Below are positions 19,592-64,000 of a DNA stretch of 64,000 nt, in pieces. Below the pieces are notes generated by a model that saw only the letters and a program-made list of their open reading frames with translations, made no database searches and was not told where the DNA came from. Both the position numbers and the translations under genes were made by a program. Source of the DNA: Candidatus Yanofskybacteria bacterium (GTDB taxonomy: Bacteria; Patescibacteriota; Minisyncoccia; 2-02-FULL-40-12; IGHO2-01-FULL-4-A); the NCBI GenBank assembly GCA_016181175.1, contig JACOZV010000003.1, positions 39,773-103,772 on the forward strand. The letters are read 5' to 3'. How positions within the stretch are numbered: position 1 is the stretch's first letter; each line of letters opens with the position of its first letter.

Positions 19592-20149
19592 TTAGGGCAT
19601 ATTACCATTTATGTGATTCTTCTGAATTATTCTAACTTTGGTTCCTATGGGTAAAAGATTTATTACTGCCGGCTCCTTTAAGCTTTCGCTGTTAATATCG
19701 TAGATTATGGTTGGCGATTTTTGCGTTAAAAGATTGAAAAGAATCCGCCCCGTGGCACTAAAACCAGCGGCGGTGATACCAGCAATAGCAGCGTTTTTTA
19801 TCTTACTTTCTGATGGTTGAATGCTTTTTGGCGGATCAATTACGCCCACTCTGGCAATAATTCCGCCGCTCGCTCCGCCGATGATAGCGGTAGTTCCCAC
19901 TCCGTCAATTAGATCTTTCGAATCTCTGACTGCCAAGCTCTCAATATCGGCCAAACCCAATTCAATGCTTTGTGATTTCTTGATCTCAATAACTATGCTT
20001 TTTGAGGGTTCTACCCTAACAATTCGCCCTTCAATGGCCACGGAGAATTCGGTCGCCCAAACGCTATTTGCACAGGAAAAAATCGCTAAAATTGCAACTG
20101 AATATACTAATAGCTTTTTCATCGGGTTCCTCCTTGCTATTATGCTCAT
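19592..20149 (-). CDS. secreted glycine-zipper protein
   Basis: Signal peptide and GTTAIIGGASGGIIARVG...AAIAGITAAGFSATG. Its start overlaps the stop of the upstream gene. Confidence 0.45.
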   Translation of the reverse strand: MSIIARRNPMKKLLVYSVAILAIFSCANSVWATEFSVAIEGRIVRVEPSKSIVIEIKKSQSIELGLADIESLAVRDSKDLIDGVGTTAIIGGASGGIIARVGVIDPPKSIQPSESKIKNAAIAGITAAGFSATGRILFNLLTQKSPTIIYDINSESLKEPAVINLLPIGTKVRIIQKNHINGNMP

Positions 20150-21945
20150 TCTACTCTCAACCTTGCCAACAAGACGGTAAAGTTTACCTCGTAAATTATG
20201 GCTTTTTCCCTAACCTCGTCGGTAACCGTCAGCTTTAACTGGTAATAACCGGTGGGCAACGGATTGTCCGTCGGCCAACCGAGCATAAAACTAGTCAGCC
20301 TCTGATAGTCCTTACTTACATCAATATACTTATTGGCCTCATTTATCATGAATCTACGTTCACGGACCAACTGTGGCTGATCGTCATTTTTGCTTGTATA
20401 GTAAAATATTTTTGACTCTACCGATATTTGCGGAATATCCTTTTTAAAAAGTGTTCCGGCGCTTGCCTCTTCAACTTTGTAACCCACTCCTTGCAAAAGT
20501 AAGACCATAACCGGATTTTCGTCGTCATAGAATACCAATTCAACACCAGAGTTTTTCCTAAATCGCAACAATTCCCTTTGGATTTTGGCAAACTCATTTG
20601 CTAACTGCTTTAAATTTTCCTCAAATTCGTTGACCAGGGTTTCAATTTCTCGCCGACCACCGGCATTTGAGTTAATCAAATTTAGAAACTGTTTCTTGTC
20701 ATTTTTTTTAGGCGACAGGGTGTTTTGCCAAACCGCTATCTTGTCGAATGCTTTTTGACCTTTTTCAGAAGTAAGAAGATCGTCTTTTACTTTGTTGTAA
20801 ATCTTATTTAAGGCGTCGGCTTGAGCAAAACTCAGTCGGCTGATTTTTGTGTTAAAAACTATGCTTACCAGTTCAAGATTGGCAAGCGCGGCGCCGCCTT
20901 TGGCATTTTCAGCAATGGCACCCAGACCGAATTGGTCCGCAAACCTGAACCTACCGGATAGCAATTGCTCAAGGACCTCTTCCGGTGTTCCGGCCATCTT
21001 GCTCTTGTAAGCAGCTACAAGTTGGTAGTCCTCAAATCCGGTTCCTTGGCTTTGGCACAGATTAGCCAACGCCAAATCGCGCATTTGGGGTTGTAGATAT
21101 TGATTTGAAACAAACCAGTCTAAGTTGGGATTCCTTTCCGCAAAAACAAACTGATAAGTTCCCTCTTGCCCGGTGTGATATTCAATAATCATAATTTTGG
21201 GCGGCGCGCTCAACTGAAAAGTTCCGGAAATTCTTTGTTGTGAATCTGGTCTCGAAGACTGTTGATCACCCAAATCACCAGAATTACCGGTATACATGCC
21301 ACCAGTGGGTGCAAAACACGTAGACGCGCTTAAAAGCATTTCTGTCCCGTCATTAATTTGAAAACTAAACCTCCCCATGGGTCCGACCCTGACATTCCTG
21401 GGGTCTGGATGGCCCATTTTTTCAACAACTACGTCCCTGCCATCCTTAAATTCTTTAGGCTGAGATTTGGTTTTATCTCTGAATCGCGGCGCCCTTTTTA
21501 ATTCCTGCTTTATTTTTTCAAACGAATCATCAATGACTCGTAAAATACCTAATACGGGCTCGTAATCTTCAGTAAGATTGGCCTCAAGATAAAGCTTTTC
21601 GGCTTCTTCCAATAAACTTTTGGAATTGTCAAGTATTTTTTCGGCTTGGCTGGTATTGACACCCTCCGCCCTTTTGGTGGCAAGAGTTATCTCGTTTTCT
21701 TTGAGTTTCTCCCACAGAGAATCAATTTCTTCTGTTGTTTGGGCTTTAGTTTTTATTCTTTTTTTGTTTTCTTTGGCAATTTTTTCCACGTCTTCATTTT
21801 CTTCCAATGCTACCTTCACCGCCTCTGGTGTTTTGGGCAGGCTAGAAGGAATAGGCGCTGTAGAACGTGAGTGGACACTGCATCCAATACAAGAAAAAAT
21901 AAAAACAGAAACAGATAGAAATAAAACCAAAAATGACTTATTCAC
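20146..21945 (-). CDS. hypothetical secreted lipoprotein (599 aa)
   Basis: Signal peptide with a Cys-containing lipobox-like end (FIFSCIGCS). Large, mostly helical, no recognisable domain. Confidence 0.45.
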   Translation of the reverse strand: MNKSFLVLFLSVSVFIFSCIGCSVHSRSTAPIPSSLPKTPEAVKVALEENEDVEKIAKENKKRIKTKAQTTEEIDSLWEKLKENEITLATKRAEGVNTSQAEKILDNSKSLLEEAEKLYLEANLTEDYEPVLGILRVIDDSFEKIKQELKRAPRFRDKTKSQPKEFKDGRDVVVEKMGHPDPRNVRVGPMGRFSFQINDGTEMLLSASTCFAPTGGMYTGNSGDLGDQQSSRPDSQQRISGTFQLSAPPKIMIIEYHTGQEGTYQFVFAERNPNLDWFVSNQYLQPQMRDLALANLCQSQGTGFEDYQLVAAYKSKMAGTPEEVLEQLLSGRFRFADQFGLGAIAENAKGGAALANLELVSIVFNTKISRLSFAQADALNKIYNKVKDDLLTSEKGQKAFDKIAVWQNTLSPKKNDKKQFLNLINSNAGGRREIETLVNEFEENLKQLANEFAKIQRELLRFRKNSGVELVFYDDENPVMVLLLQGVGYKVEEASAGTLFKKDIPQISVESKIFYYTSKNDDQPQLVRERRFMINEANKYIDVSKDYQRLTSFMLGWPTDNPLPTGYYQLKLTVTDEVREKAIIYEVNFTVLLARLRVE

Positions 21946-27542: not shown

Positions 27543-28934
27543 CTACTTAATCTTATCTATTACTCCAAATATGTGGTCCCTAGAATTAACCAAAACGAGA
27601 TAGGCATCGTTATTTTTTGCTAGAATTACCGAATAATCAATCGTTAAATTATGATCTGGAAAGTTAATATATCTAATTGCTGTCCCGTTGTAAGTATTAT
27701 CTAAGAATACCATGGATGATGCCTTGGATTGGTCAAATTGAAGCATGTTAACTAACGTTTGTTTCATTGTGTCTTCCCAATTTTTTAAGATTGTACGCAC
27801 TATTGGGGTCATATCTGTGCTTTGAATTTTTACAATAAAACCAGGGCTAATAGTACCATCTATTTTGGGCATAAAAGTCAACCAAAAGTTTTTATCATCA
27901 ATCAAGGTTTTCAATTCTAACGGTAAATTAGCTAACATACCATCCATAAATTCTTCAAATCCATACCGCTTAGTCCCATCTACATTATTAACCTTGTAAA
28001 TTCCAATCTCCCCGGATGAAATCAATGAATCAAGCTTTCCAGAACTGGAAAACTGGCTTACTAGGGTCGCAGGTGCAGTACCTCCAATTGAAAAATTTAC
28101 CGAATCCACCACCGAAAACAGGTTTTCAATAGAAATTGGCGTGACAGTTGGTGAAGTAGAAGGAGATGGACTAAATATTGGCGTAGGTATTGTTTGACTA
28201 CGATAAACAAAAAATTCAGTAATAGCAGCAATTAAAACTACCAGACCAATAATAATAAAAAGCGTCCTTTTTGAACCAGCTTTGTCAAATTTACTCCAAA
28301 AACTACCTGTGGACGGTATATTCAATGAAGGCTTCGTTAAGCTAATAGGGGGCATCGTCGGCTGCATCGTCGGCTGTGAAACTCTTGGCAAAACTGCTGG
28401 CGGAATAGCTGTGCCTGGCAATGGCTTGGCTTTTTCAAGCTTACCAAGCTCAACGTGAGATATTGGTGATAGTGGTATTTTTGTTGGAATAGGTTCAGGC
28501 ATTGTTTTAACTTCTTTTTCCGATTCTTTTTCTATTTTAAAACCGGCTGGTGTCTGGCCTTTTTTGATAGCTCCCAGATCGTCCAGCATTGTCCTAATTG
28601 AAGATTTAAAAACAGTAGATGGTTGACTCTGTTGAGTAACTGGCGGCAACGTAGGAACTGTGGGTCTGGAAAATCCTGGCGTTGAAGGTCGTGGTGGTAT
28701 TGGCATGGTAGGTATAGCCGGCCTAACAAAAGTGGAAGTTGGTGATTTCGTTTCACTAATCGGCAAATTAGGCGGAATTTTAATATCCGGGGTTAGAGGA
28801 CTTGCTTTGCCCTCCATAGCTACAGGCGAAGGAGGGTTCACGCTGGGTTTGGGCGGCGTTGTTACGCTTGGAAAAGAAGGGGGTGGCGGTAAACTAGTCG
28901 ACCTAGAAACTGGCGGTTTTATTTCATCGGCCAT
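27543..28934 (-). CDS. proline-rich single-pass membrane protein with C-terminal globular domain
   Basis: The N-terminus is P/S/T-rich (PPPSFPSVTTPPKPS...), followed by a TM helix (LFIIIGLVVLIAAITEFFV) and then a structured C-terminal domain. Confidence 0.5.
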   Translation of the reverse strand: MADEIKPPVSRSTSLPPPPSFPSVTTPPKPSVNPPSPVAMEGKASPLTPDIKIPPNLPISETKSPTSTFVRPAIPTMPIPPRPSTPGFSRPTVPTLPPVTQQSQPSTVFKSSIRTMLDDLGAIKKGQTPAGFKIEKESEKEVKTMPEPIPTKIPLSPISHVELGKLEKAKPLPGTAIPPAVLPRVSQPTMQPTMPPISLTKPSLNIPSTGSFWSKFDKAGSKRTLFIIIGLVVLIAAITEFFVYRSQTIPTPIFSPSPSTSPTVTPISIENLFSVVDSVNFSIGGTAPATLVSQFSSSGKLDSLISSGEIGIYKVNNVDGTKRYGFEEFMDGMLANLPLELKTLIDDKNFWLTFMPKIDGTISPGFIVKIQSTDMTPIVRTILKNWEDTMKQTLVNMLQFDQSKASSMVFLDNTYNGTAIRYINFPDHNLTIDYSVILAKNNDAYLVLVNSRDHIFGVIDKIK

Positions 28935-34263: not shown

Positions 34264-35454
34264 TTAATAGCGGCTCTTTAACAAGTAATCGACCTTCTCA
34301 AGAAATATAATTGTTTCGTCTGTTTTGCCTAATTTACGAAGGGCAACACGCCAATCCTGACCCGTCTTTGTGCGTTTAATCGCTTTAATTACCCGCCCAA
34401 TACCACAATTGTGGGCGGCATATAAATAATGATCGAGTTTTTCATCATCCAATATTTTTTCACCAAATACTTTTTTTAGTTCGTTAAGATTATAGTCATA
34501 GAGCAGTATTGCGGCCATTATTGACTCTATGTGCTGCATTGCGCCAACATTAAACTCTGGCAACTTAGCTAAGGGATATTTCTTCTTGATAATATTCCAC
34601 GTCCCCCTTGTAAACTGCGTAAGACCTACAGCACCGGCATAATTGTAGGTAGAAAACGCCCCTTCGCCGTTACCTGCAAGCAAAATCTTAACTCTATCAA
34701 ACGGATTGAATTTTAAAGTTCCTGACTTAAAAGCATAAAATTCCTGTGGATCTGTTAATTCCACTAAAACAAGGTTTATGGGAAATAAGAAGCTCATCGT
34801 TTCACTTACCTTTTTATCCGAATTTGCCAAAGATATGACACCTAAAGAATGTAGCTCTGCAACGGCAGCGACAAAATGACCCTCAAGGTGAAAGTCGCCC
34901 ATCTTAATTAATTCATCTTGATGAAGACTAGTAGAGTAAGGAAAATAAATGCGTTCCGCTGGTTTACCGCTTACAAGGTCGATCCAGCCATTAGCAATCA
35001 CTATCCACCCATCGGGTGCAACAACGCGAAAGGCGGTATTCCTGCCATTCCAGGTTATGCCATTTACCCTCGGCTCAATTTCAACCGTAAATTCTTTATC
35101 TAGATTAAAAAGTTTTTGGCCTTCTTTCCTAATTTTAATAAGCTTTATTTCGCCCGTTTCTGTATTCATTAATACCAGGCCAGCTTCTTTCCAGGCATAA
35201 TCTGTCCTTTTTGTGGTTAAAATTTTGGATTTTTTCTTCTTGACTTGTGCTGGTAATTTTCTTGTTTCCTTATAAGTTACTATTTTGACGCTGTGCTTCA
35301 ATTCCACATTTTTAAGCATCTGTTTTGCTTCATCAATTTTATCAAGCCAGCTGTATTTTTTTTCTTGAGCTTCGGCTCTGGAACAATAATGCACAGATAA
35401 TGAAAAAACCACCAAAGTAGCAAATAACAAAATCCTCGCACGTAATTTGTTCAT
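34264..35454 (-). CDS. secreted protein with C-terminal lytic-transglycosylase (SLT/lysozyme-like) domain
   Basis: Signal peptide. The C-terminus has FSTYNYAGAVGLTQF, matching the SLT motif S..GA.GLMQ. Confidence 0.5.
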   Translation of the reverse strand: MNKLRARILLFATLVVFSLSVHYCSRAEAQEKKYSWLDKIDEAKQMLKNVELKHSVKIVTYKETRKLPAQVKKKKSKILTTKRTDYAWKEAGLVLMNTETGEIKLIKIRKEGQKLFNLDKEFTVEIEPRVNGITWNGRNTAFRVVAPDGWIVIANGWIDLVSGKPAERIYFPYSTSLHQDELIKMGDFHLEGHFVAAVAELHSLGVISLANSDKKVSETMSFLFPINLVLVELTDPQEFYAFKSGTLKFNPFDRVKILLAGNGEGAFSTYNYAGAVGLTQFTRGTWNIIKKKYPLAKLPEFNVGAMQHIESIMAAILLYDYNLNELKKVFGEKILDDEKLDHYLYAAHNCGIGRVIKAIKRTKTGQDWRVALRKLGKTDETIIFLEKVDYLLKSRY

Positions 35455-43636: not shown

Positions 43637-43646
43637 GTTTTGTCCG

Positions 43647-43998
43647 TGGATCTGGGGAGAGTTGAACTCCCGTCTAGAAGTTGATTTAAAATTGCACTAC
43701 AAGTTTAGCCGGACTGTTTAGTCCTCGGTTAAAAGCCCGACAGAATAACCGAAAACCTGTTTTGTATTTTTCGAATCGTAACGCCGAAACATTTAAAAAA
43801 CGCTACAATCTTATCCTGCTAATGACACCCTGATTCGGCTAGCAGAAATCACCGAGAGGATGCGCCTTAAGCGTAAGCTAAAGCGTAATTGCTATTGTAG
43901 TTGGCAATTATAATTTTGGGTAGGTACTTAAAGTGGTGACTACCCATCCACTACTTGCGCAAATTTTAAAAGAAATTCTATCGAAGCCGGTCAGACCC
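43647..43998 (-). ncRNA. ssrA: tmRNA (ssrA), one-piece, 352 nt; tag ORF 43868-43905 encoding (A)ANYNSNYALAYA
   Basis: Lies immediately 3' of smpB on the same strand. The 5' GGGUCUG pairs with the 3' CAGAUCC, giving G3:U70 and discriminator A. T-arm gggag-uucaacu-cuccc. The 5' region resembles the E. coli GGGGCUGAUUCUGGAUUCGAC. Tag frame gcc aac tac aat agc aat tac gct tta gct tac gct TAA (compare E. coli ...AAC UAC GCU UUA GCA GCU UAA). CCA is not encoded. Confidence 0.85.
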
Positions 43999-48301: not shown

Positions 48302-50080
48302 ATGATTAAGGATTTACTTAAAAATTTAGTCATCAAAACTTTGAAAAGCCAAAAAAATTGGCCGAGTTTTGATGTCTATGAAATTACAATAGAGAAACCG
48401 GCCAACCAACAGTTCGGGGACTATGCCACAAACATCGCATTCAGATTAGCCAAACAACTTGGCAAACCGCCGCAAGAAATAGCACAATTTTTAGCTGATG
48501 AAATTTCTAAAATCAAACCAGCCGAAATTGTCAAAGTTGAAGCTAACGACGGGTACGTTAACTTTTTCTTAAGCAGTGAGTTGCTCCGCCAATCACTGGC
48601 TGATATTTATAAAACTCGGGGATCTTTCGGCAAACTAAACATCGGCCGAAAACAGAAAATAATAGTTGAGTATTCCCAGCCCAATATCGCCAAGCAGATG
48701 CACATCGGCCACTTGCGGACAACTGTGCTCGGCGATGCCTTGGCTAACATTTATGAGATGCTGGGTTATAAGGTAATACGCTGGAACTACCTCGGCGACT
48801 GGGGCACACAATTCGGTAAACTAATCACTGCTTACAAACTCTGGAGTGTCCAACTTAGAGGCTCAGCCTCTAAGTACTTAGAGGCTGAGCCTCTAAGTAA
48901 TAAAAAACAGCTAACAATCAGGGTTTTGACAGAGCTTTACGTCAAATTTCACAAAGAATTAAAAGAGCATCCTGAGTTGGAACGCCAGGGACAGGAAGAA
49001 TTTGCAAAACTGGAAGCCAGTGATAAAGAAAACCACAAGCTGTGGGAATGGTTTCGCAAACTATCTATCAAAGAATTTGAGAATATTTATAAAACACTGG
49101 GAGTTAATTTTGATATTTGGCTCGGGGAAAGCAATTTTGAAAAAGACCTCAAGCCATTGGTTAACGATCTCCGCAAGCGGGAGATTGCCGAAATTGGCGA
49201 AGAAGGAGCAATTATTATAAAACTAGACCGATTTAACCTACCACCGGCGTTGATACAAAAAGCTGATGGGGCAAGTTTGTATCTCACACGTGACATCGCG
49301 ACTCTCAAGTACCGCTTAGCTAAATATAAACCGGCAAAACTTCTTTATGTCGTCGGCAATGAGCAATCTCTGCATTTTGAACAGCTTTTTATGATTGCAA
49401 AAGTCTTAGATTTAAACACATCCCAACTCCTTCATATAAAATTTGGCTTGGTACTCGGGGAGGACAAGAAAAAAATGTCCACGCGAGAAGGCGAGGCAAT
49501 CCCGCTTGAAGAAGTAGTTGAAAAAGCCATTAGCTTGGCCCGAGATATTGTAGAAAAAAAGAGTCCGAACATTGCCGAAAAAGAAAAATATCATATCGCT
49601 CAAACCGTTGCTCTTGGCGCACTTAAATACGAAATGCTCAAGGAGCACCGCAATAGCGATATCGTTTTCAGTTGGGACAAAATGCTAGATTTCAGCGGTA
49701 ACAGTGCACCATATTTGCAATACACTTATGCGCGATTATCAAGTATACTGCAAAAAGCCGGCTGGACTTGGAGGTTGAGCCTCCAAGGGAGGCTCAACCT
49801 CTCAAAACTCGGTGAAAAAACAGAGTTGGCCATCATGAAACATCTTTTGGATTTCCCCGAAGTCATCACCGATTCTGCTCGCACTAATCTGACCAATAAT
49901 CTTGCTCTCTATGTTTATGAACTTGCCAACTTGTCCAACCAATTTTATGAAACCTCACCAATTCTCAAAGACGACAATACCTCCCGCCGGAACGCCCGTC
50001 TCGTACTCATACAAACCACGGCCTCTGTTCTCAAATCCGGCCTTAATCTGTTGGGTATAGAAGTCCTAAATAAAATATAA
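48302..50080 (+). CDS. argS: arginine--tRNA ligase
   Basis: HIGHLRTTVLGDA (HIGH), KMSTREG (KMSK) and a C-terminal DALR anticodon-binding domain. It contains two in-frame palindromic repeat elements. Confidence 0.9.
   Translation: MIKDLLKNLVIKTLKSQKNWPSFDVYEITIEKPANQQFGDYATNIAFRLAKQLGKPPQEIAQFLADEISKIKPAEIVKVEANDGYVNFFLSSELLRQSLADIYKTRGSFGKLNIGRKQKIIVEYSQPNIAKQMHIGHLRTTVLGDALANIYEMLGYKVIRWNYLGDWGTQFGKLITAYKLWSVQLRGSASKYLEAEPLSNKKQLTIRVLTELYVKFHKELKEHPELERQGQEEFAKLEASDKENHKLWEWFRKLSIKEFENIYKTLGVNFDIWLGESNFEKDLKPLVNDLRKREIAEIGEEGAIIIKLDRFNLPPALIQKADGASLYLTRDIATLKYRLAKYKPAKLLYVVGNEQSLHFEQLFMIAKVLDLNTSQLLHIKFGLVLGEDKKKMSTREGEAIPLEEVVEKAISLARDIVEKKSPNIAEKEKYHIAQTVALGALKYEMLKEHRNSDIVFSWDKMLDFSGNSAPYLQYTYARLSSILQKAGWTWRLSLQGRLNLSKLGEKTELAIMKHLLDFPEVITDSARTNLTNNLALYVYELANLSNQFYETSPILKDDNTSRRNARLVLIQTTASVLKSGLNLLGIEVLNKI
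48854..48899. repeat. 46-bp tandem duplication of a 23-nt self-palindromic unit (cttagaggctSagcctctaagta x2) inside argS, translated in two different frames
   Basis: Read directly from the sequence. The unit cttagaggctcagcctctaag is its own reverse complement apart from the central base. It encodes LRGSASKYLEAEPLSN. Confidence 0.75.
49771..49801. repeat. 14-bp-arm inverted repeat (gaggttgagcctcc-aag-ggaggctcaacctc) inside argS
   Basis: Exact inverted repeat encoding WRLSLQGRLNLS. It shares a gagcctc core with the 48854 element. Confidence 0.7.
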
Positions 50081-50117: not shown

Positions 50118-53100
50118 ATGGCCGATTTTGATTTCCCCAAAGTAGAGGAAAAAATCCTCCATTTTTGGAAAGATCGGAAAATTTTTGAGAGATCTCTTGA
50201 AAACCGCGAACACGCGCGGCGGTTTGTTTTTTTTGAAGGGCCGCCGACAGCCAACGGCAAACCGGGCATACACCATTTCCTCGGCCGCATATTGAAAGAT
50301 CTTTTTGTCCGCTACAAAACTATGCGGGGTTACCTGGTTGCACGCAAAGCTGGCTGGGATACACACGGCTTACCGGTTGAAATTGAGGTAGAAAAAGAAC
50401 TTGAATTAAAAGATAAAAAAGAAATAGAAAAATACGGCATAGCCAAATTCAACGCAAAAGCCAAACAAAGTGTCTGGAAATATAAAGATGAATGGGAAAG
50501 ATTTACTCACCGCATTGGTTTCTGGTTAAACATGGGCGAGCCTTATATAACTTATGATTGGAAATACATGGAATCGCTTTGGTGGATCATCTCACAAATA
50601 GACAAACGTAAACTTCTCTATCAAGGTCACAAGATCCTTCCATGGTGTCCTCGCTGTGGTACTGCATTATCAAGCCATGAAGTCGCGCAGGGCTATGAAG
50701 ACGTAACCGAAACCTCGGTCTATGTTAAATTCAAACTCAAAAACCCGGAAAAAATTTTACCAGTTACCAGTGACCGGTTACCGGTTACCTACTTATTAGC
50801 TTGGACAACAACCCCATGGACACTTCCGGGTAATGTTGCCTTAGCCGTAGGAGAAAAAATCAAATATGCAATCGTACGAAAAGACAACGACTATTTATTG
50901 CTTGCCAAGGATTTAATTGAAAAAGTTGTACCCGATTCACAAATAATTCAAGAAATAAAAGGCAAAGATCTTGTTGGACTAGAATACAAACCGATTTTTA
51001 ATATTCCCGTCCTTCGACAAGGCTTCGGAGGACAAGCCTCATATAAAATTTATCCGGCCGATTTTGTCACCACAAAGGAAGGCACAGGCATTGTCCATAC
51101 AGCCGTAATGTACGGCGAGGATGACTATGAGTTGGGTAAAAAAATAGGCTTACCCAAACACCACACCGTTGATGAACAGGGTAAATTTACCAAAGAGGTA
51201 AAAGAATTCGCCGGTCAATACGTAAAAGATGCTGAAAAAGGAATAATAGAATATCTTGGTTCCCACGGACTACTTTTCAAAACGGAACAATTTACACACT
51301 CTTATCCGCATTGTTGGCGTTGCAACAATCCGCTTCTTTATTACGCAAAAGACTCCTGGTTTGTGGCAATGTCTAAACTCCGCAAACAACTTCTTAAAAA
51401 TAACAAAAAAATAAACTGGGTGCCTAACTATCTCAAGAACGGCCGTTTTGGCGAATTCTTAAAAGAAGCGAAAGACTGGGCTTTTTCACGCGAACGTTAT
51501 TGGGGAACGCCGTTGCCAATCTGGCAATGCCAAAATTGTAAAGAACAAAAAGTAATAGGCTCACTGGATGAATTAGAAAAACATAGATACCACGGCAAAA
51601 ATACATTTTTTGTTTTGCGTCATGGATTCAGCACTAAAAATGGCGCCCACGGACAAGACGCGATTACCGCCTCAAAACTTGAACATGACAAGTATGAACT
51701 AACGGACGATGGAATAGAACAGGTGCAAAAAACAGCTGATGAGCTTCTCGCAAGCGGGGGAGTAGATGTTATTTTCTCATCCCCGTTCTTAAGAACACGG
51801 CAATCAGCTGAACTCGTTGCCAAAAAGCTAGGCATGAAAGTAACGATAGATGCCAGGCTAAAAGAACTGGATCACGGCACTGTTTGTGAGGGTCAAACAC
51901 ACATGGTTTGCGTTTCACCCGATACTATTTTGACATTTGACACCAAATACGGAGACGGCGAAAGCTGGCGAGATGTCAAAATCAGAATGGCCGAGATTAT
52001 CCGTGAACTTGACCAAAAATATGAAAATAAAAAAATCCTGCTCGTAAGCCACGGCGACCCGATTTGGATACTAGAAGGGTTTACCAAAAACTGGAACGAT
52101 GAAGAAATGCTAAACGGACGAGGCGGCATCTATCTTCGAGAGGGTCATATGAAAAAAATTGAGTTGAAAAATCTTCCATATAACAATCGGGCCGAACTTG
52201 ATATGCACCGGCCGTATGTTGACGAGATATCGCTTAAGTGTGAAAAATGCGGAAATAAAATGTCCCGGATTAAAGATATCGCCGATGTTTGGTTTGACTC
52301 CGGCTCAATGCCGTACGCGCAGTGGCATTATCCATTTGAAAACAAAAAACGTTTTGATGAAAATTTCCCTGCTGATTTCGTTGCCGAAGGTATAGATCAG
52401 ACTCGCGGCTGGTTCTACACATTGCTTGCCGTATCTACTTTGCTTGGCCTGGAAACTCCATATAAAAACGTTATTTCTTACAGCCACGTTCTGGATGAGA
52501 AAGGCAAAAAAATGTCTAAATCTACCGGCAATGTGGTGGATCCGCGGATTATTATAGAAAAATTCGGAGTAGATGCCGCGAGGTGGTATTTTTATACAGT
52601 AAACAATCCTGCTGATTCTAAATTGTTTTCCATAAATGACGTTGGCAAAAAACTTAACGGTTTCATTATGACGCTGATGAACTCTTTGAGGTTTTTTGAG
52701 TTATATGGCAAACCCAGCAACAAAAAACCCAAAGCAGTTCCAACGAACCAATTGGATTCTTGGATACTTTCTCGACTAAATACTACTGCGGGGATTGTCG
52801 CCAAGTCCATGGACGGTTACGATCCCACAACTGCCACCCGCGAAATGGAAAAGTTTGTAGTGGAAGACTTATCAAATTGGTGGATCCGTCGCTCGCGCCA
52901 GCGTTTTCAGAAACCAGAAAATAAAGAAGAGCTTAGCCATGCGGTAGAACTTTTGCGGCACCTTCTGGTGGAATTAAGCAAAATGCTGGCACCGTTTACA
53001 CCATTTCTTGCTGATCATATTTATAAAAAACTTGATAACCGCAAAGAATCAGTCCATTTGGAAGATTGGCCGAAAATAAAAAAGAAGCTCATCAATCATG

Positions 53101-53618
53101 AGCTTGAAACACAAATGGCCGAATTGCGCGAAACCGCAACGCAAGGCCTTGCCCAAAGAAAAGAACGGGGGATAAAAGTGCGCCAGCCGCTTGCCGGCAT
53201 CACGCTCAAGAAAGCCAATAAATTTGACCCCGGCTTGGAACAACTACTTTTAGATGAATTGAATGTTAAAAATGTACTCTACGAGACCGGCCAACAAGAT
53301 ACTATAAGTATAGACCACAAACTTACGCCCGATCTGTTAATGGAGGGCTATGCCCGAGAAATAATGCGTCAGATTCAGGATATGCGAAAAGAAGCCAAAT
53401 ATAAATTATATGAAAAAGTACATGCGGCTTGGGAAAGTCAAAATCAGGAAGTTATTGAAGCCTTAAAAAAACACGAAAAGGAAATAGCTGAAGACACACT
53501 GCTTTCGGAATTTAGTCGCGGACACGATCCAAAAAAAATTTTTGACGTTGAAAAAGAGTTTGAACTAGGACCACAAGCTAAAATTTGGTTAGGAGTCCAC
53601 GCTAAAAATAGGTTATGA
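50118..53618 (+). CDS. ileS: isoleucine--tRNA ligase (type 2-like) carrying an inserted histidine-phosphatase (PGAM-like) domain
   Basis: PPTANGKPGIHHFLGR (HIGH), editing-domain WTTTPWTLPGN and TGIVHTAVMYGEDD, KKMSKSTGN (KMSKS). Between the WQCQNCK zinc knuckle and DMHRPYVDEI lies about 200 aa with LRHGFSTKNG (RHGxxxxN), LTDDGIEQVQKTA, VIFSSPFLRTRQSA and LLVSHGDPI, the complete histidine-phosphatase motif set. Confidence 0.9.
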   Translation: MADFDFPKVEEKILHFWKDRKIFERSLENREHARRFVFFEGPPTANGKPGIHHFLGRILKDLFVRYKTMRGYLVARKAGWDTHGLPVEIEVEKELELKDKKEIEKYGIAKFNAKAKQSVWKYKDEWERFTHRIGFWLNMGEPYITYDWKYMESLWWIISQIDKRKLLYQGHKILPWCPRCGTALSSHEVAQGYEDVTETSVYVKFKLKNPEKILPVTSDRLPVTYLLAWTTTPWTLPGNVALAVGEKIKYAIVRKDNDYLLLAKDLIEKVVPDSQIIQEIKGKDLVGLEYKPIFNIPVLRQGFGGQASYKIYPADFVTTKEGTGIVHTAVMYGEDDYELGKKIGLPKHHTVDEQGKFTKEVKEFAGQYVKDAEKGIIEYLGSHGLLFKTEQFTHSYPHCWRCNNPLLYYAKDSWFVAMSKLRKQLLKNNKKINWVPNYLKNGRFGEFLKEAKDWAFSRERYWGTPLPIWQCQNCKEQKVIGSLDELEKHRYHGKNTFFVLRHGFSTKNGAHGQDAITASKLEHDKYELTDDGIEQVQKTADELLASGGVDVIFSSPFLRTRQSAELVAKKLGMKVTIDARLKELDHGTVCEGQTHMVCVSPDTILTFDTKYGDGESWRDVKIRMAEIIRELDQKYENKKILLVSHGDPIWILEGFTKNWNDEEMLNGRGGIYLREGHMKKIELKNLPYNNRAELDMHRPYVDEISLKCEKCGNKMSRIKDIADVWFDSGSMPYAQWHYPFENKKRFDENFPADFVAEGIDQTRGWFYTLLAVSTLLGLETPYKNVISYSHVLDEKGKKMSKSTGNVVDPRIIIEKFGVDAARWYFYTVNNPADSKLFSINDVGKKLNGFIMTLMNSLRFFELYGKPSNKKPKAVPTNQLDSWILSRLNTTAGIVAKSMDGYDPTTATREMEKFVVEDLSNWWIRRSRQRFQKPENKEELSHAVELLRHLLVELSKMLAPFTPFLADHIYKKLDNRKESVHLEDWPKIKKKLINHELETQMAELRETATQGLAQRKERGIKVRQPLAGITLKKANKFDPGLEQLLLDELNVKNVLYETGQQDTISIDHKLTPDLLMEGYAREIMRQIQDMRKEAKYKLYEKVHAAWESQNQEVIEALKKHEKEIAEDTLLSEFSRGHDPKKIFDVEKEFELGPQAKIWLGVHAKNRL

Positions 53619-61127: not shown

Positions 61128-61985
61128 TTATTTTGGGTAGGTTATGTTGCTTTCAACTTGCGGGAATATAACATCGGATTTGGCGCGAAATCTCCGGTAA
61201 TTCTTCCACATTCCCGAAGCAAAATACCACTTTCTGTCACGATTAAATTGCGCAGCCATTTCTATACTCACCGGCAATCTTAAAAGCTCTTGATTTTCAC
61301 CGAGACCAACAAATTCATAATTTACACTTATAAAAAGAGTTGACGATAACAGGCCTTCTGGCAAGTACAATTCTTGAAAAATCTGCAGAACATTAAACTG
61401 TTCGTCAACAACAACTCGACCCGAACACCCAACAGCCCCGTCCCAGTTACTAAAAAAACTGTTGCGTTCAGTATAGTGACAAACCTTATCTTGCGAAAAT
61501 GCTTTGTAACTAAAAACTTGCACAATTTTTCCTTTGTAACTACTAACGCCCTGATAGCTGACGGGGGTAGTAACCAAATGCTTAAACAGATCATGCCATT
61601 CTTGCCCTGGCCTAACGCCTATTCCCGGAATTGGGAGCGCAAATCTCTCTTTGCCGAATTTGCCACCAGGTTCTATCTTGCGAAACACCTGACGGTTGTT
61701 ATAAATTGCAACTTCATATCGCCAAGTTTCTCTGGATTTAGTTTCACCCCACAACCGCAATTCTTGTTCTGCCAACAGATCAGTCATCAACGCCAGGTTT
61801 TTACTCACCTTGTTTTTCATGACAAAAATTAAGTTAGCTGAATCCGTTTCCTTGTCTAACATGAGCGGTTTGTCTAGCTTTAACTTCAAATCCGGCAAAT
61901 AAGTAGTGCTTTCATTTTTTTGTTCAGCGAATAAAGCCGGAAAAAAAATAAAAACTGACAAAATGCAATAAAAAGGCACCCTCAT
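61128..61985 (-). CDS. hypothetical secreted protein
   Basis: Signal peptide (MRVPFYCILSVFIFFPALFA) and no recognisable motif. Confidence 0.4.
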   Translation of the reverse strand: MRVPFYCILSVFIFFPALFAEQKNESTTYLPDLKLKLDKPLMLDKETDSANLIFVMKNKVSKNLALMTDLLAEQELRLWGETKSRETWRYEVAIYNNRQVFRKIEPGGKFGKERFALPIPGIGVRPGQEWHDLFKHLVTTPVSYQGVSSYKGKIVQVFSYKAFSQDKVCHYTERNSFFSNWDGAVGCSGRVVVDEQFNVLQIFQELYLPEGLLSSTLFISVNYEFVGLGENQELLRLPVSIEMAAQFNRDRKWYFASGMWKNYRRFRAKSDVIFPQVESNITYPK

Positions 61986-62111: not shown

Positions 62112-62420
62112 ATGAGATGGCAGATTTATGGCGTTTGGACGGCATTTGCCGTTTCGTTTGTCAGCCTGGATTTTATCATATGGAAAATCGGACCAGATAC
62201 CTCTTCGTTTAAGATAAAGGTTCTGTTTTTCATTGCTTTGTTTATTTTGGTGTGGAGCATAGCAACCTTAGTAATTTTTGAAATCAAAAATAGATTTCTC
62301 AAGTCACGACTTCTTGGACAAAATGCCTACGAATCGGCTTTTTTATTATCATCATTGCAGAGTTTAATTTTTTCTGCTGTTATTATAATCATCATTTTAA
62401 TTAGAAAATTTGTTCTATGA
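62112..62420 (+). CDS. hypothetical small membrane protein
   Basis: 102 aa with three hydrophobic helices. Its stop overlaps the pheS start. Confidence 0.35.
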   Translation: MRWQIYGVWTAFAVSFVSLDFIIWKIGPDTSSFKIKVLFFIALFILVWSIATLVIFEIKNRFLKSRLLGQNAYESAFLLSSLQSLIFSAVIIIIILIRKFVL

Positions 62421-63559
62421 GAGAAATAATCGCGGCAAAAGCGCCTGAAGCGGACATACTGCAAAAAGCGCTAGAATCTAAAAACGACCCGGAAAGCTTG
62501 CGTCTAAAGAGGTTTTTAAGCATGCCTGATTTGTCGCGCACTTCCGGCAGTCCGATCTGTGAACTGGCACAACGCATTATAAACCTGCCAGATTTTAAGG
62601 ACTTCGATATTGTGGAGGCACCGGAAATTGTCCCGGCCGATATCAGTTTTGACTTATTTGATTTTCCACCGGATCATCCGGCACGCTCCAAGTCAGACAC
62701 ATATTACGTAGATGATAAAAACATACTGCGCACTCACACCACTATTATGTGGTACTACTACCTAATGAATGAGGGTATAAAAAGCCGTATTAAAAACATG
62801 GAAGCCGTCGGTTCTCTTTCTTATGGAAAGGTTTACCGCAGGGACGAGATAGACCGCCACCACATGAATGTATTCCACCAAATGGATGGTTGGTATCTGT
62901 GTTTAAAAGAGCAAAAAATAATCACTACCGAAGACCTGCAGAACGTCTTGATAAAAATCGCACAAGCGGTTTTCGGTAATGACGTGAAATACCGCTTCAA
63001 TGAAGATAAATTCCCATACACCAATCCGAGTCTTGAGATGGAAATTGAAAGGGGTAACAGATGGGTGGAAATACTGGGAAGCGGCGTGGTAAGCGGCGTG
63101 GTCCTGGAAAAACTAGGCGTTGATTCTTCCAAATACAATGGCTGGGCGTTTGGTTTCGGTTTGGAACGCCTCGCAATCGCCAGCATGGAACTACCAGATA
63201 TTAGACTGCTTTGGTCAAACGACGAACGGGTCAAAAAACAGCTTGTGCTAGATAATAAGTTCAAAGAAGTTTCCAAATTCCCGCCGATTACCAGAGACAT
63301 TTCTTTTATTGTGAACAAAAAGTTTGTGCCCAATGATTATTTTGACCTTATACGCGACTTAGGTGGGGACTTAGTAGAAGAAGTCAAACTTTTGGACCAC
63401 TACGATGACACTGAAAAATTCGGTTCGGACCAAACCAGCTATACTTATCGGATCACATATCGCAGTAACGAACGCACTCTTCAAACCAACGAGATAGACC
63501 CAATTCAAGAAAAAATCACCCAAGAAACAATTAAACAATTTAACTCTCAAATTCGCTAA
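62417..63559 (+). CDS. pheS: monomeric phenylalanine--tRNA ligase: PheS-type class II catalytic core fused to a C-terminal FDX anticodon-binding domain (mitochondrial-type architecture)
   Basis: PheS motifs HPARSKSDTYY, LRTHTT and GWAFGFGLERLAIASMELPDIRLLWSNDER. The C-terminal 100 aa (FPPITRDISFIV...LLDHYDD...SYTYRITYRSNERTLQTNEID) match the ferredoxin-fold anticodon-binding domain that is normally the C-terminus of PheT. gyrB follows, with no pheT. Confidence 0.75.
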   Translation: MREIIAAKAPEADILQKALESKNDPESLRLKRFLSMPDLSRTSGSPICELAQRIINLPDFKDFDIVEAPEIVPADISFDLFDFPPDHPARSKSDTYYVDDKNILRTHTTIMWYYYLMNEGIKSRIKNMEAVGSLSYGKVYRRDEIDRHHMNVFHQMDGWYLCLKEQKIITTEDLQNVLIKIAQAVFGNDVKYRFNEDKFPYTNPSLEMEIERGNRWVEILGSGVVSGVVLEKLGVDSSKYNGWAFGFGLERLAIASMELPDIRLLWSNDERVKKQLVLDNKFKEVSKFPPITRDISFIVNKKFVPNDYFDLIRDLGGDLVEEVKLLDHYDDTEKFGSDQTSYTYRITYRSNERTLQTNEIDPIQEKITQETIKQFNSQIR

Positions 63560-63698: not shown

Positions 63699-64000
63699 AT
63701 GGCCAAAAAAGAAGACCAAAAAAATCAAAATTCTTATACTGCTAAAGACATATATGTTTTAGAGGGTCTTGAACCGGTTAGAAAAAGACCAGGAATGTAT
63801 ATCGGCTCAACCGGCGTGGACGGATTACACCATTTGATATGGGAGGTTTTTGATAACTCACTTGATGAAGCCATGGCCGGCTATGCTAAAAATATTGAGG
63901 TTACACTGCTAACCAACAATCGCGTAAAGGTAAAGGACGACGGACGCGGCATACCGGTAGAAAAGCACAAACAAACCGGGGTCTCGGCGCTTGAAACGGT
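63699..64000 (+). CDS. gyrB: DNA gyrase subunit B (N-terminal fragment, continues beyond the window)
   Basis: [49 protein letters not shown], the GHKL ATPase N-terminus of GyrB. Confidence 0.85.

What the first reader, a model, noticed from the sequence alone, without database searches (positions are those of the whole stretch)
62417..63559. Monomeric mitochondrial-type PheRS (PheS core + FDX anticodon-binding domain) with no adjacent pheT
Bacterial PheRS is normally an (alpha-beta)2 enzyme encoded by adjacent pheS-pheT. Here a 380-aa protein has the PheS catalytic motifs followed by a C-terminal domain that looks like the ferredoxin-fold anticodon-binding domain normally found at the C-terminus of PheT. 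That is the architecture of monomeric mitochondrial PheRS. gyrB follows immediately, so no pheT is nearby. If the genome has no pheT at all, this organism relies on a minimal PheRS lacking the beta-subunit editing site.
Basis: partly seen in the sequence, partly recalled or inferred. Interest (0 to 1): 0.6.

Follow-up and report, generated by a model that had tools for sequence, protein, structure and literature searches.

The report
Single-chain mitochondrial-type PheRS in a bacterium
This ultra-small groundwater bacterium (Candidatus Yanofskybacteria) encodes a one-chain phenylalanyl-tRNA synthetase of the kind known from mitochondria, apparently in place of the usual two-subunit bacterial enzyme, so it probably makes all its proteins without the Phe/Tyr proofreading site.

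Summary
ORF 62417..63559 (+) encodes a 380-aa protein with a PheS class-II core (residues 45-275) and a C-terminal FDX-ACB anticodon-binding domain (286-380). gyrB follows 139 nt downstream, and the window holds no pheT or second pheS.

The closest solved structure, by sequence and by predicted fold, is human mitochondrial PheRS. The Phe-pocket, class-II motif and anticodon-contact residues are all kept. NCBI's look-alike "mystery ligase" SrmL has lost them, and this protein scores below SrmL's cut-off.

The gene is vertically inherited across Parcubacteria. It is found in thousands of sequences, 46-88% identical in the relatives compared, in a conserved PheRS-gyrB-secE-nusG-rplK neighbourhood. 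It forms a bacterial clade sister to the mitochondrial (plus huge-phage) clade and is not nested inside it.

Whole-genome absence of pheT could not be tested for this MAG. A published marker matrix of CPR genomes supports it indirectly: 17 of 96 well-covered genomes have FDX-ACB without the PheT B5 domain, and 16 of those 17 also lack the canonical PheS N-terminal domain. One Parcubacterium with canonical pheST lacks the single-chain gene.

Verdict: a real bacterial member of the monomeric PheRS kind, and probably the sole PheRS. I found no paper describing it.

The parts
62417..63559 (+). Complete CDS of the single-chain (PheRS-M type) phenylalanyl-tRNA synthetase, 380 aa plus a TAA stop
   Evidence: ORF list. 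Pfam PF01409 plus PF03147. TIGR00469 pheS_mito scores 243.6 bits. Best PDB hits are human mtPheRS. The AF2 model has pLDDT 91.
62417..62548 (+). N-terminal region (residues 1-44), short and mostly helical. It replaces the long coiled-coil N-domain (PF02912) of canonical PheS, which is absent here.
   Evidence: No PF02912 hit. DSSP on the model shows helices 10-20 and 25-35. R29, R32 and P37-R41 are invariant in 44 homologues.
62549..63241 (+). Class II catalytic core (residues 45-275). It has motif 2 (R141, FHQMDG 153-158), the Phe pocket (F199, Y201, T202, A244, F245) and motif 3 (GLER, R251).
   Evidence: PF01409 E 7e-54. Residue-by-residue comparison with E. coli PheS, mitochondrial PheRS and SrmL.
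63272..63556 (+). FDX-ACB ferredoxin-fold anticodon-binding domain (residues 286-380), homologous to domain B8 of PheT. It keeps D327, Y329, S341 and the C-terminal R380.
   Evidence: PF03147 E 1e-22 over the full profile. TIGR00472 positions 697-798. Column comparison with 8 PheT C-termini.
62112..62420 (+). Small membrane-protein ORF (102 aa, no Pfam family). Its stop overlaps the PheRS start by 4 nt (ATGA), so it is probably co-transcribed and translationally coupled. It is conserved upstream of the PheRS in relatives.
   Evidence: No Pfam hit. 51% identical ORF at the same place in L005. 90-101-aa ORFs directly upstream in L005 and L006.
63699..64000 (+). 5' part of gyrB, the conserved downstream neighbour. 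It begins a gyrB-secE-nusG-rplK-tmk housekeeping block.
   Evidence: Sequence. The Logan contig of the same genome carries gyrB, secE, nusG, rplK and tmk after the PheRS. The order is the same. gyrB lies within 1.5 kb downstream in 47 of 74 GTDB species loci.

Best explanation
The gene encodes a functional single-chain PheRS of the mitochondrial (PheRS-M) type, and it is most likely the only PheRS of this Yanofskybacterium. Inferred mechanism, by analogy with human mtPheRS: the class II core activates Phe with ATP. The C-terminal FDX-ACB domain reads the GAA anticodon of tRNAPhe after swinging from a closed to an open position. Phe is then transferred to A76. The enzyme would work as a monomer without a beta subunit, and therefore without the B3/B4 post-transfer editing site, so Phe/Tyr accuracy would rest on the synthetic active site alone. 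The gene was inherited vertically from an ancestor of a large part of Parcubacteria, in which it replaced pheS-pheT. Shown here: the architecture, fold, conserved residues, synteny, distribution and phylogenetic position. Inferred: the oligomeric state, the activity, the lack of editing, and that it is the sole PheRS in this genome.
For: (1) Domains: PF01409 plus PF03147. The TIGR00469 score of 243.6 is just under the cut-off of 258.35, while close family members pass it: P0121 264.3, P0357 265.6, P0346 261.3.
(2) Best solved relatives are human mtPheRS (E 4e-57). The AF2 model (pLDDT 91, pTM 0.86) superposes on the closed form 3cmq/5mgv with TM 0.77 over about 386 columns.
(3) The equivalents of E. 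coli PheS H149, R152, D156, R195, F206-H207-Q208, E210 (here Asp), G211, F248, F250 (here Tyr), T251, P253, S254, G271, A294, F295 and R301 are all kept in the Parcubacterial proteins. SrmL has changed 9 of them.
(4) The FDX-ACB positions that are invariant in PheT and, from my memory of the T. thermophilus complex, contact the anticodon (D327, Y329, S341, R380) are kept. SrmL has lost them.
(5) More than 6000 homologues have E<=1e-10, and the top 120 are 71-88% identical. Conservation is about equal to GyrB, NusG and L11 from the same genomes.
(6) The housekeeping synteny is conserved in Yanofsky-, Sung-, Staskawicz- and Nealsonbacteria and in 47 of 74 GTDB species loci.
(7) Genome-wide marker matrix of public CPR genomes (supplement of PMC8672522): among 96 genomes at least 85% complete, 17 have FDX-ACB but no B5. 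Of those 17, 16 also lack Phe_tRNA-synt_N, against 39 of 53 B5+/FDX-ACB+ genomes that have it (Fisher p=7.5e-7). Completeness is equal at 0.96. B5 and FDX-ACB lie on one polypeptide in PheT, so incompleteness cannot produce this class. The class is also enriched for PNPase, which this window encodes.
(8) Conversely, the fully annotated Parcubacterium PMX_810_sub has canonical pheS and pheT and no third PheRS gene.
(9) No PheT is found in the window, in 187 kb of related loci or in 1.19 Mb of loci from 80 species.
Against: The rest of this MAG could not be read, so a pheST pair elsewhere in the genome is not excluded. The window protein itself falls below both curated NCBIfam cut-offs, and NCBI calls it 'hypothetical protein'. 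The marker matrix is anonymous (no taxonomy, binary values) and cannot reveal genomes that carry both enzyme types. The loci searched for PheT are all the same syntenic region, so they say little about the rest of each genome. Two active-site positions differ conservatively from canonical PheS (Glu to Asp157, Phe to Tyr201). There is no biochemical evidence. The anticodon-contact residue mapping rests on my memory of the T. thermophilus structure.
Confidence: 0.78

Rival explanations
1. It is an accessory PheS-like paralogue, either an SrmL-like 'mystery ligase' or a second specialised PheRS, that coexists with a canonical pheS-pheT pair elsewhere in the genome.
For: NCBIfam scores SrmL (NF051887) almost as high as pheS_mito: 241.6 against 243.6 bits. 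SrmL has the same two-domain architecture and occurs in Actinomycetota with large genomes and in a few Patescibacteria. Relatives nested in the Parcubacterial clade (the P0125 'Oligoflexia' group) sit in non-housekeeping neighbourhoods. Canonical pheST exists in some Parcubacteria. The whole genome was not checked.
Against: The score is below the SrmL cut-off of 300, while true SrmL proteins score 359-415 and form a separate long-branched clade with 100% bootstrap. SrmL has altered Phe-pocket and anticodon residues, which this protein keeps. The housekeeping synteny and ribosomal-protein-like conservation do not fit an accessory gene. The marker matrix shows genomes with FDX-ACB but no B5 or PheS-N. 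Redundant aaRS genes would be unexpected in genomes as small as the 0.7-0.9 Mb contigs that carry this gene (my inference; contig sizes).
Confidence: 0.13
2. It is a recent horizontal acquisition, or a binning contaminant, from a eukaryote (a nuclear gene for mitochondrial PheRS).
For: The best PDB and TIGRFAM matches are eukaryotic mitochondrial enzymes. The nearest non-Parcubacterial representatives include many eukaryote-looking precursors with N-terminal extensions.
Against: The gene lies between bacterial genes with a 4-nt overlap upstream and gyrB downstream. The same arrangement recurs across many Parcubacterial lineages. In the tree the Parcubacterial sequences form their own clade (98% bootstrap), separated from the mitochondrial/phage clade by a 97% split, and are not nested inside it. 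The protein has no presequence and lacks the roughly 30-aa insertion seen in human mtPheRS.
Confidence: 0.03
3. It is a phage-derived gene. Huge phages carry compact monomeric PheRS genes, and one was captured by Parcubacteria. It may act as a mobile auxiliary gene, not a core gene.
For: Short (about 350 aa) homologues that pass TIGR00469 lie on 160-kb and 340-kb contigs with phage-like gene content.
Against: Those phage-like sequences fall in the other (mitochondrial) clade. The Parcubacterial gene keeps a fixed chromosomal position among core genes and tracks host divergence as GyrB and L11 do. An ancient capture followed by fixation as the sole PheRS would be compatible with the best explanation.
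Confidence: 0.06

Closest known systems
Mitochondrial monomeric PheRS (human FARS2, yeast MSF1; TIGR00469; 'PheRS-M' in AARS Online, PMC11580382)
   Same: It is a single chain made of a PheS-type class II core and a C-terminal FDX-ACB domain. It has no coiled-coil N-domain, no beta subunit and no B3/B4 editing domain. The Phe pocket and anticodon-binding residues are conserved. The predicted fold matches the closed form of 3cmq (TM 0.77). It groups with these enzymes and away from canonical PheS (99% bootstrap).
   Different: It is encoded in a bacterial chromosome among housekeeping genes. It has no presequence, is shorter (380 aa against about 415 aa mature) and lacks the roughly 30-aa insertion after motif 2. 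It belongs to a separate bacterial sister clade and is only about 30-45% identical. It would serve a whole cellular proteome, whereas mtPheRS serves a handful of organellar proteins. Its score is slightly under the TIGR00469 cut-off.
Replacement of the plastid alpha-beta PheRS by monomer-type PheRS in diatoms and cryptophytes (PMC4494062)
   Same: The evolutionary event is the same: a monomer-type PheRS takes over and the beta-subunit gene (syfB/pheT) is lost.
   Different: There it happened in organelles, by retargeting a nuclear gene. Here it happened in a cellular bacterial lineage and was inherited vertically.
PheS-related mystery ligase SrmL (NCBIfam NF051887)
   Same: It has the same two-domain architecture and sits in the same bacterial branch of the PheRS-M superclade. 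The HMM score against this protein is 241.6 bits.
   Different: The score is below the cut-off of 300. True SrmL proteins have replaced H149, D156, G211, F248, P253, S254, G271, F293 and F295 (E. coli numbering) and the anticodon-contact residues. They occur mainly in Actinomycetota with large genomes. Their function is unknown.
Canonical bacterial (alpha-beta)2 PheRS (pheS TIGR00468 / pheT TIGR00472)
   Same: The catalytic core is homologous to PheS (30% identical to E. coli). The C-terminal domain is homologous to PheT domain B8.
   Different: There is no PF02912 N-domain. There is no separate beta subunit with its B1-B7 domains, so no B3/B4 editing site. No pheT is adjacent. The TIGR00468 score of 152.7 is below the cut-off of 237.45.

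Membership tests
Monomeric (mitochondrial-type) PheRS, PheRS-M / TIGR00469 | One polypeptide joining a PheS class II core to a C-terminal FDX-ACB anticodon-binding domain, without the PheS coiled-coil N-domain | tested here: met
   PF01409 at residues 45-275 plus PF03147 at 286-380; no PF02912.
Monomeric (mitochondrial-type) PheRS, PheRS-M / TIGR00469 | Score at or above the curated TIGR00469 cut-off (258.35 bits) | tested here: inconclusive
   The window protein scores 243.6, below the cut-off. Family members straddle it: P0121 264.3, P0357 265.6, P0346 261.3 and P0365 255.3. The model was built from eukaryotic sequences.
Monomeric (mitochondrial-type) PheRS, PheRS-M / TIGR00469 | Class II motifs 2 and 3 and the Phe-binding pocket residues are intact | tested here: met
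   R141, F153-H154-Q155, D157, G158, F199, Y201, T202, P204, S205, G221, A244, F245 and R251 are conserved as in canonical and mitochondrial PheRS.
Monomeric (mitochondrial-type) PheRS, PheRS-M / TIGR00469 | Anticodon-recognition residues of the FDX-ACB domain are conserved | tested here: met
   D327, Y329, S341 and R380 align with positions that are invariant or near-invariant in 8 PheT sequences and in the mitochondrial clade. Their role in contacting G34-A36 is recalled from the T. thermophilus complex and was not tested here.
Monomeric (mitochondrial-type) PheRS, PheRS-M / TIGR00469 | Three-dimensional similarity to solved mtPheRS over both domains | tested here: met
   Foldseek top hits are 5mgv, 3cmq and 5mgh with TM 0.77-0.79 and rmsd 3.3-3.6 over 386-406 columns. 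Canonical PheS chains cover the core only.
Monomeric (mitochondrial-type) PheRS, PheRS-M / TIGR00469 | Groups phylogenetically with mitochondrial PheRS and away from canonical PheS | tested here: met
   All two-domain proteins form a clade against 6 canonical PheS sequences (99% of 200 NJ bootstraps). The Parcubacterial clade is sister to the mitochondrial/phage clade, not inside it. The method was NJ only; no ML tool was available.
Monomeric (mitochondrial-type) PheRS, PheRS-M / TIGR00469 | Works as a monomer and charges tRNAPhe with Phe; has no editing activity | not testable with these tools
   This needs protein biochemistry. Only the absence of a B3/B4 domain in the protein and its surroundings is shown.
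Sole cellular PheRS (replacement of pheST) | No pheS or pheT elsewhere in the same genome | not testable with these tools
   Only 64 kb plus flanks of up to 10 kb are readable. Indirect support comes from the marker matrix, from the reciprocal case PMX_810_sub and from the absence of PheT in 1.4 Mb of related loci.
Canonical bacterial PheS (TIGR00468) | Score at or above 237.45 bits, an N-terminal PF02912 domain and an adjacent pheT partner | tested here: not met
   The score is 152.7 bits. There is no PF02912. No pheT is found in the window.
SrmL, PheS-related mystery ligase (NF051887) | Score at or above 300 bits | tested here: not met
   The score is 241.6 bits. True members score 359-415.
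SrmL, PheS-related mystery ligase (NF051887) | The residue pattern seen here in 5 true SrmL members (altered pocket: N/S at H149, Y at D156, H at F248, G at S254, E at G271) | tested here: not met
   The window protein has the PheRS residues at all these positions. It lies in a different clade, with SrmL at 100% bootstrap and the Parcubacterial group at 98%.

The most novel reading that the evidence does not exclude
The single-chain PheRS architecture (PheS core fused to the PheT B8 domain) was not invented in early eukaryotes for mitochondria. On this reading it is an old bacterial (and phage-borne) lineage. Parcubacteria are its main living cellular carriers and use it as their only PheRS. 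Mitochondrial FARS2/MSF1 would then descend from such a bacterial or phage donor and not from an alphaproteobacterial pheS. The tree found here does not exclude this: a bacterial clade and a mitochondrial-plus-phage clade are reciprocally separated, with the canonical-PheS root falling between them at weak support (57-64%).
Probability: 0.3. Interest if true: 0.75.

Novelty: new member of a known kind. Interest (0 to 1): 0.6.

Why it matters
In standard accounts (my knowledge of the field; PMC3275996 describes three forms: bacterial, archaeal/eukaryotic cytosolic and mitochondrial), bacterial PheRS is an (alpha-beta)2 heterotetramer with a beta-subunit editing site, and the monomeric form belongs to organelles. 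If a major branch of Parcubacteria runs its whole proteome on the monomeric, editing-less enzyme, four things follow.

1. The minimal PheRS is sufficient for cellular life, not only for organelles that make very few proteins.
2. These organisms either tolerate Tyr or m-Tyr misincorporation or rely on active-site discrimination alone, which can be tested.
3. Marker sets that use pheS, pheT, B5 or Phe_tRNA-synt_N would under-score the completeness of such genomes. NCBI currently calls the protein 'hypothetical'.
4. The origin of mitochondrial PheRS becomes testable, because a large bacterial sister clade and phage-borne copies are now available.

A compact, naturally orthogonal-looking PheRS may also interest genetic-code engineers.

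Tried and rejected
1. I tried to obtain a Parcubacterial PheT sequence, to test co-occurrence through contig-length fingerprints, and failed. I collected diverse PheT sequences from mislabelled chromosomes in PLSDB. The 8-sequence alignment was too diverse for the locus finder. A 5-sequence alignment worked on viral contigs, but hits are ranked by similarity to the first sequence, so a scan of the genome collection would have returned only Clostridia. None of the 21 viral-contig PheT loci looked Parcubacterial. I therefore spent the single genome-contig scan on the PheRS itself.

2. A PheT motif DNA pattern scan of viral contigs gave 6 uninformative loci.

3. Literature: nine full-text searches found no paper linking a monomeric PheRS to CPR/Patescibacteria. 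'SrmL' matches only unrelated acronyms. Supplements of three other papers had nothing useful.

4. Representatives P0242, P0200 and P0245 looked like possible canonical PheS sequences close to the family. They show only PF01409 and remain unplaced.

5. The idea that the P0125 'Oligoflexia' protein defines a separate non-CPR family is rejected. It nests inside the Parcubacterial clade.

6. Eukaryotic contamination or recent transfer from a eukaryote is rejected on synteny and phylogeny.

7. No T-box or other Rfam element lies upstream of the gene.
Full report
**What is there.** ORF 62417..63559 on the + strand encodes 380 aa. Pfam finds the PheRS class II core (PF01409, residues 45-275, E 7e-54) and a full-length FDX-ACB domain (PF03147, residues 286-380, E 1e-22). 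The PheS N-terminal coiled-coil domain (PF02912) is absent. A 102-aa membrane-protein ORF (62112..62420) overlaps the start codon by 4 nt. gyrB starts at 63699. tblastn with E. coli PheS and PheT, and a PheT HMM, find nothing else related to PheRS in the 64-kb window. Rfam finds no leader or T-box upstream.

**Source organism.** The exact protein is 'hypothetical protein HYT61_03175 [Candidatus Yanofskybacteria bacterium]' on a 126-kb contig. This is a Parcubacterium of the Patescibacteria/CPR. A Logan contig from the same genome continues gyrB-secE-nusG-rplK-(ORF)-tmk.

**Family assignment.**
- NCBIfam gives two near-equal hits, both below their cut-offs: TIGR00469 pheS_mito (243.6 against 258.35) and NF051887 'PheS-related mystery ligase SrmL' (241.6 against 300). 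Canonical pheS scores 152.7 against 237.45.
- The best solved relatives are human mitochondrial PheRS (E 4e-57). Canonical PheS chains match only the core, and PheT chains match only the last 100 residues.
- An AlphaFold2 model (pLDDT 91, pTM 0.86) superposes over both domains on the closed form of human mtPheRS (3cmq, 5mgv; TM 0.77-0.79). It fits the tRNA-bound open form 3tup less well (TM 0.58), as expected if the anticodon-binding domain swings on tRNA binding.

**Is it a real PheRS or an SrmL-like ligase?** I aligned 135 sequences: Parcubacterial proteins, their nearest representatives among 1.8 billion cluster representatives, true SrmL proteins and six canonical PheS sequences.
- The Parcubacterial proteins keep every signature position of the PheRS active site. 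These are motif 2 R141, FHQ(M)DG, the F199-P-Y201-T202 ring-stacking segment, A244 (E. coli A294), F245 and motif 3 R251. There are two conservative changes, Glu to Asp157 and Phe to Tyr201.
- Five proteins that pass the SrmL cut-off (359-415 bits) have replaced nine of these positions.
- In the FDX-ACB domain, D327, Y329, S341 and the C-terminal R380 align with positions invariant in PheT and in the mitochondrial clade. From memory of the T. thermophilus PheRS-tRNA complex, these are the anticodon contacts. SrmL has lost them.
- SrmL proteins named by NCBI come from Actinomycetota with large genomes (Kocuria, Arthrobacter, Microbacterium, Kibdelosporangium) and from a few Patescibacteria.
- The window protein is therefore not SrmL, and it has what a Phe-specific, tRNAPhe-reading enzyme needs.

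**Distribution and inheritance.**
- More than 6000 database proteins match at E<=1e-10. The best 120 are 71-88% identical, 378-381 aa long, and carry Parcubacterial names.
- A more distant Parcubacterial set (Wolfe-, Staskawicz-, Nealson- and Portnoybacteria) is about 50% identical.
- A strict-pattern scan of one genome per GTDB species found 159 species. The best 80 span Yanofsky-, Giovannoni-, Zambryski-, Nomura-, Colwell-, Lipton-, Wildermuth-, Azam- and Niyogibacteria, Spechtbacterales and Minisyncoccia. They include a complete 899-kb chromosome, OY970175.1.
- The neighbourhood PheRS-gyrB-(secE)-nusG-rplK...tmk...gatB-miaA is conserved in five lineages. gyrB lies within 1.5 kb downstream in 47 of 74 species loci.
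- Identity to relatives is 72-73% within the close clade and 46-48% to the distant one. That is comparable to GyrB (66-76% and 62%) and L11 (72-79% and 60%) from the same genomes.
- This is the behaviour of a vertically inherited core gene.

**Phylogeny.** These are neighbour-joining trees with Kimura distances and 200 bootstraps. No maximum-likelihood program was available.
- All two-domain proteins separate from canonical PheS at 99%.
- The Parcubacterial group, including the nested 'Oligoflexia' P0125 group, has 98% support.
- SrmL is a long-branched relative with 100% support.
- The split between the bacterial clade and the clade of proteins that pass TIGR00469 has 97% support in the ingroup-only analysis.
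- The canonical-PheS root falls between the two clades with only 57-64% support.
- The gene is therefore not a recent import from a eukaryote. The direction of any ancient transfer is open.
- Some short members of the 'mitochondrial' clade lie on 160-340-kb contigs with phage-like gene content.

**Is it the only PheRS?** This could not be tested directly, because the tools give at most 10 kb on each side of a gene. The indirect evidence is as follows.
- A supplement of PMC8672522 reproduces anvi'o's single-copy-gene matrix for public CPR genomes, and I parsed 178 of them. Among 96 genomes with at least 85% of 24 near-universal markers, 17 have FDX-ACB but no B5 domain. Of those 17, 16 also lack the PheS N-terminal domain. 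Among 53 genomes with both B5 and FDX-ACB, 39 have it (Fisher p=7.5e-7). Completeness is the same in both classes (0.96).
- In PheT, B5 and FDX-ACB lie on one polypeptide, so assembly gaps cannot create this class. The class is also coherent in other markers: enolase is rare and PNPase is common. This window encodes PNPase.
- The annotation table of the Paceibacterales MAG PMX_810_sub (not flagged as truncated in the copy held) lists one canonical pheS (with PF02912) and one pheT (B3/4, B5, CLM, FDX-ACB) and no third PheRS gene. So canonical pheST exists in some Parcubacteria, and at least this genome lacks the single-chain form.
- A PheT HMM finds only the single-chain genes in 187 kb plus 1.19 Mb of loci from genomes that carry them. 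This is weak evidence, because all these loci are the same region.
- Taken together, I put the probability that this genome has no pheST at about 0.8.

**Mechanism.** This is inferred from human mtPheRS. The core makes Phe-AMP. The FDX-ACB domain rotates from the closed position to bind the GAA anticodon. Phe is then transferred to tRNAPhe. With no beta subunit there is no B3/B4 editing site, so Tyr and m-Tyr rejection depends on the pocket, where A244 and T202 are retained. None of this was measured.

**What is known.** I found no paper in the library that describes a monomeric PheRS in bacteria (nine searches). AARS Online lists PheRS-M with human FARS2 as its example. Diatom and cryptophyte plastids have repeatedly replaced the alpha-beta enzyme with the monomer type and lost syfB (PMC4494062), which is the same event in an organelle. 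Databases already annotate the Parcubacterial proteins loosely: JGI as 'PheRS alpha chain', UniRef as 'phenylalanine--tRNA ligase' and NCBI as 'hypothetical'. I rate it a new (bacterial) member of a known kind, with interest 0.6.

Noticed in passing
window 50118..53618 (+): A 1166-aa isoleucyl-tRNA synthetase (TIGR00392, 914 bits) carries a histidine-phosphatase-superfamily domain (PF00300, E 7.5e-27) inserted at about residues 495-655, which splits the synthetase into two matched stretches. ArgRS lies directly upstream (48302..50080). This is an unusual domain insertion in an aaRS.
   Followed up: partly
L044 8001-9047 (340-kb contig) and L045 8001-9065 (160-kb contig): Short (348-354 aa) single-chain PheRS homologues that pass the TIGR00469 cut-off lie on very large contigs. 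These contigs hold tightly packed, mostly hypothetical genes plus phage-like ones (PhageMetallopep, PcfJ, SNF2 helicase, dNMP kinase, dCMP deaminase, an IF1-like gene). They are probably huge phages carrying a monomeric PheRS.
   Followed up: partly
window 62112..62420 (+): A 102-aa predicted membrane protein with no Pfam family has a stop codon that overlaps the PheRS start (ATGA). A 51%-identical ORF occupies the same position in L005, and 90-101-aa ORFs lie directly upstream in L005 and L006. Why a PheRS should be coupled to a small membrane protein is unexplained.
   Followed up: partly
L007 10001-11245 (Oligoflexia MAG contig JAIBBV010000034.1): A 414-aa relative (P0125) and its group of 394-447-aa proteins nest inside the Parcubacterial clade. 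P0125 itself sits among non-housekeeping genes (M20 peptidase, GCS2 ligase, two MR_MLE epimerases, a beta-lactamase). This may be a transfer out of Parcubacteria into bacteria that presumably also have pheST.
   Followed up: partly
proteins P0443 and P0418 (no locus fetched): True SrmL-type proteins, with changed Phe pocket and anticodon residues, occur not only in Actinomycetota but also in some Patescibacteria, for example 'Phenylalanyl-tRNA synthetase domain protein [Candidatus Giovannonibacteria]'. Giovannonibacteria also appear among carriers of the bona fide single-chain PheRS. Whether one genome holds both was not checked.
   Followed up: no
window 43644..43998 (-): A tmRNA gene (Rfam 145 bits) with tag peptide ANYNSNYALAYA.
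   Followed up: no
L003 12174-15515 (CP066690.1): In the complete Sungiibacteriota genome, the gyrB downstream of the PheRS is 1113 aa and contains an intein (PF14890). A 23S rRNA intervening-sequence protein gene lies between nusG and rplK.
   Followed up: no
window 20146..21945 (-), 7217..8791 (-), 27543..28934 (-), 34264..35454 (-), 61128..61985 (-): Five sizeable ORFs (285-599 aa) have no Pfam family at E<=1e-5. The last one (285 aa, hydrophobic N-terminus) lies between tRNA-Asp and the PheRS operon.
   Followed up: no
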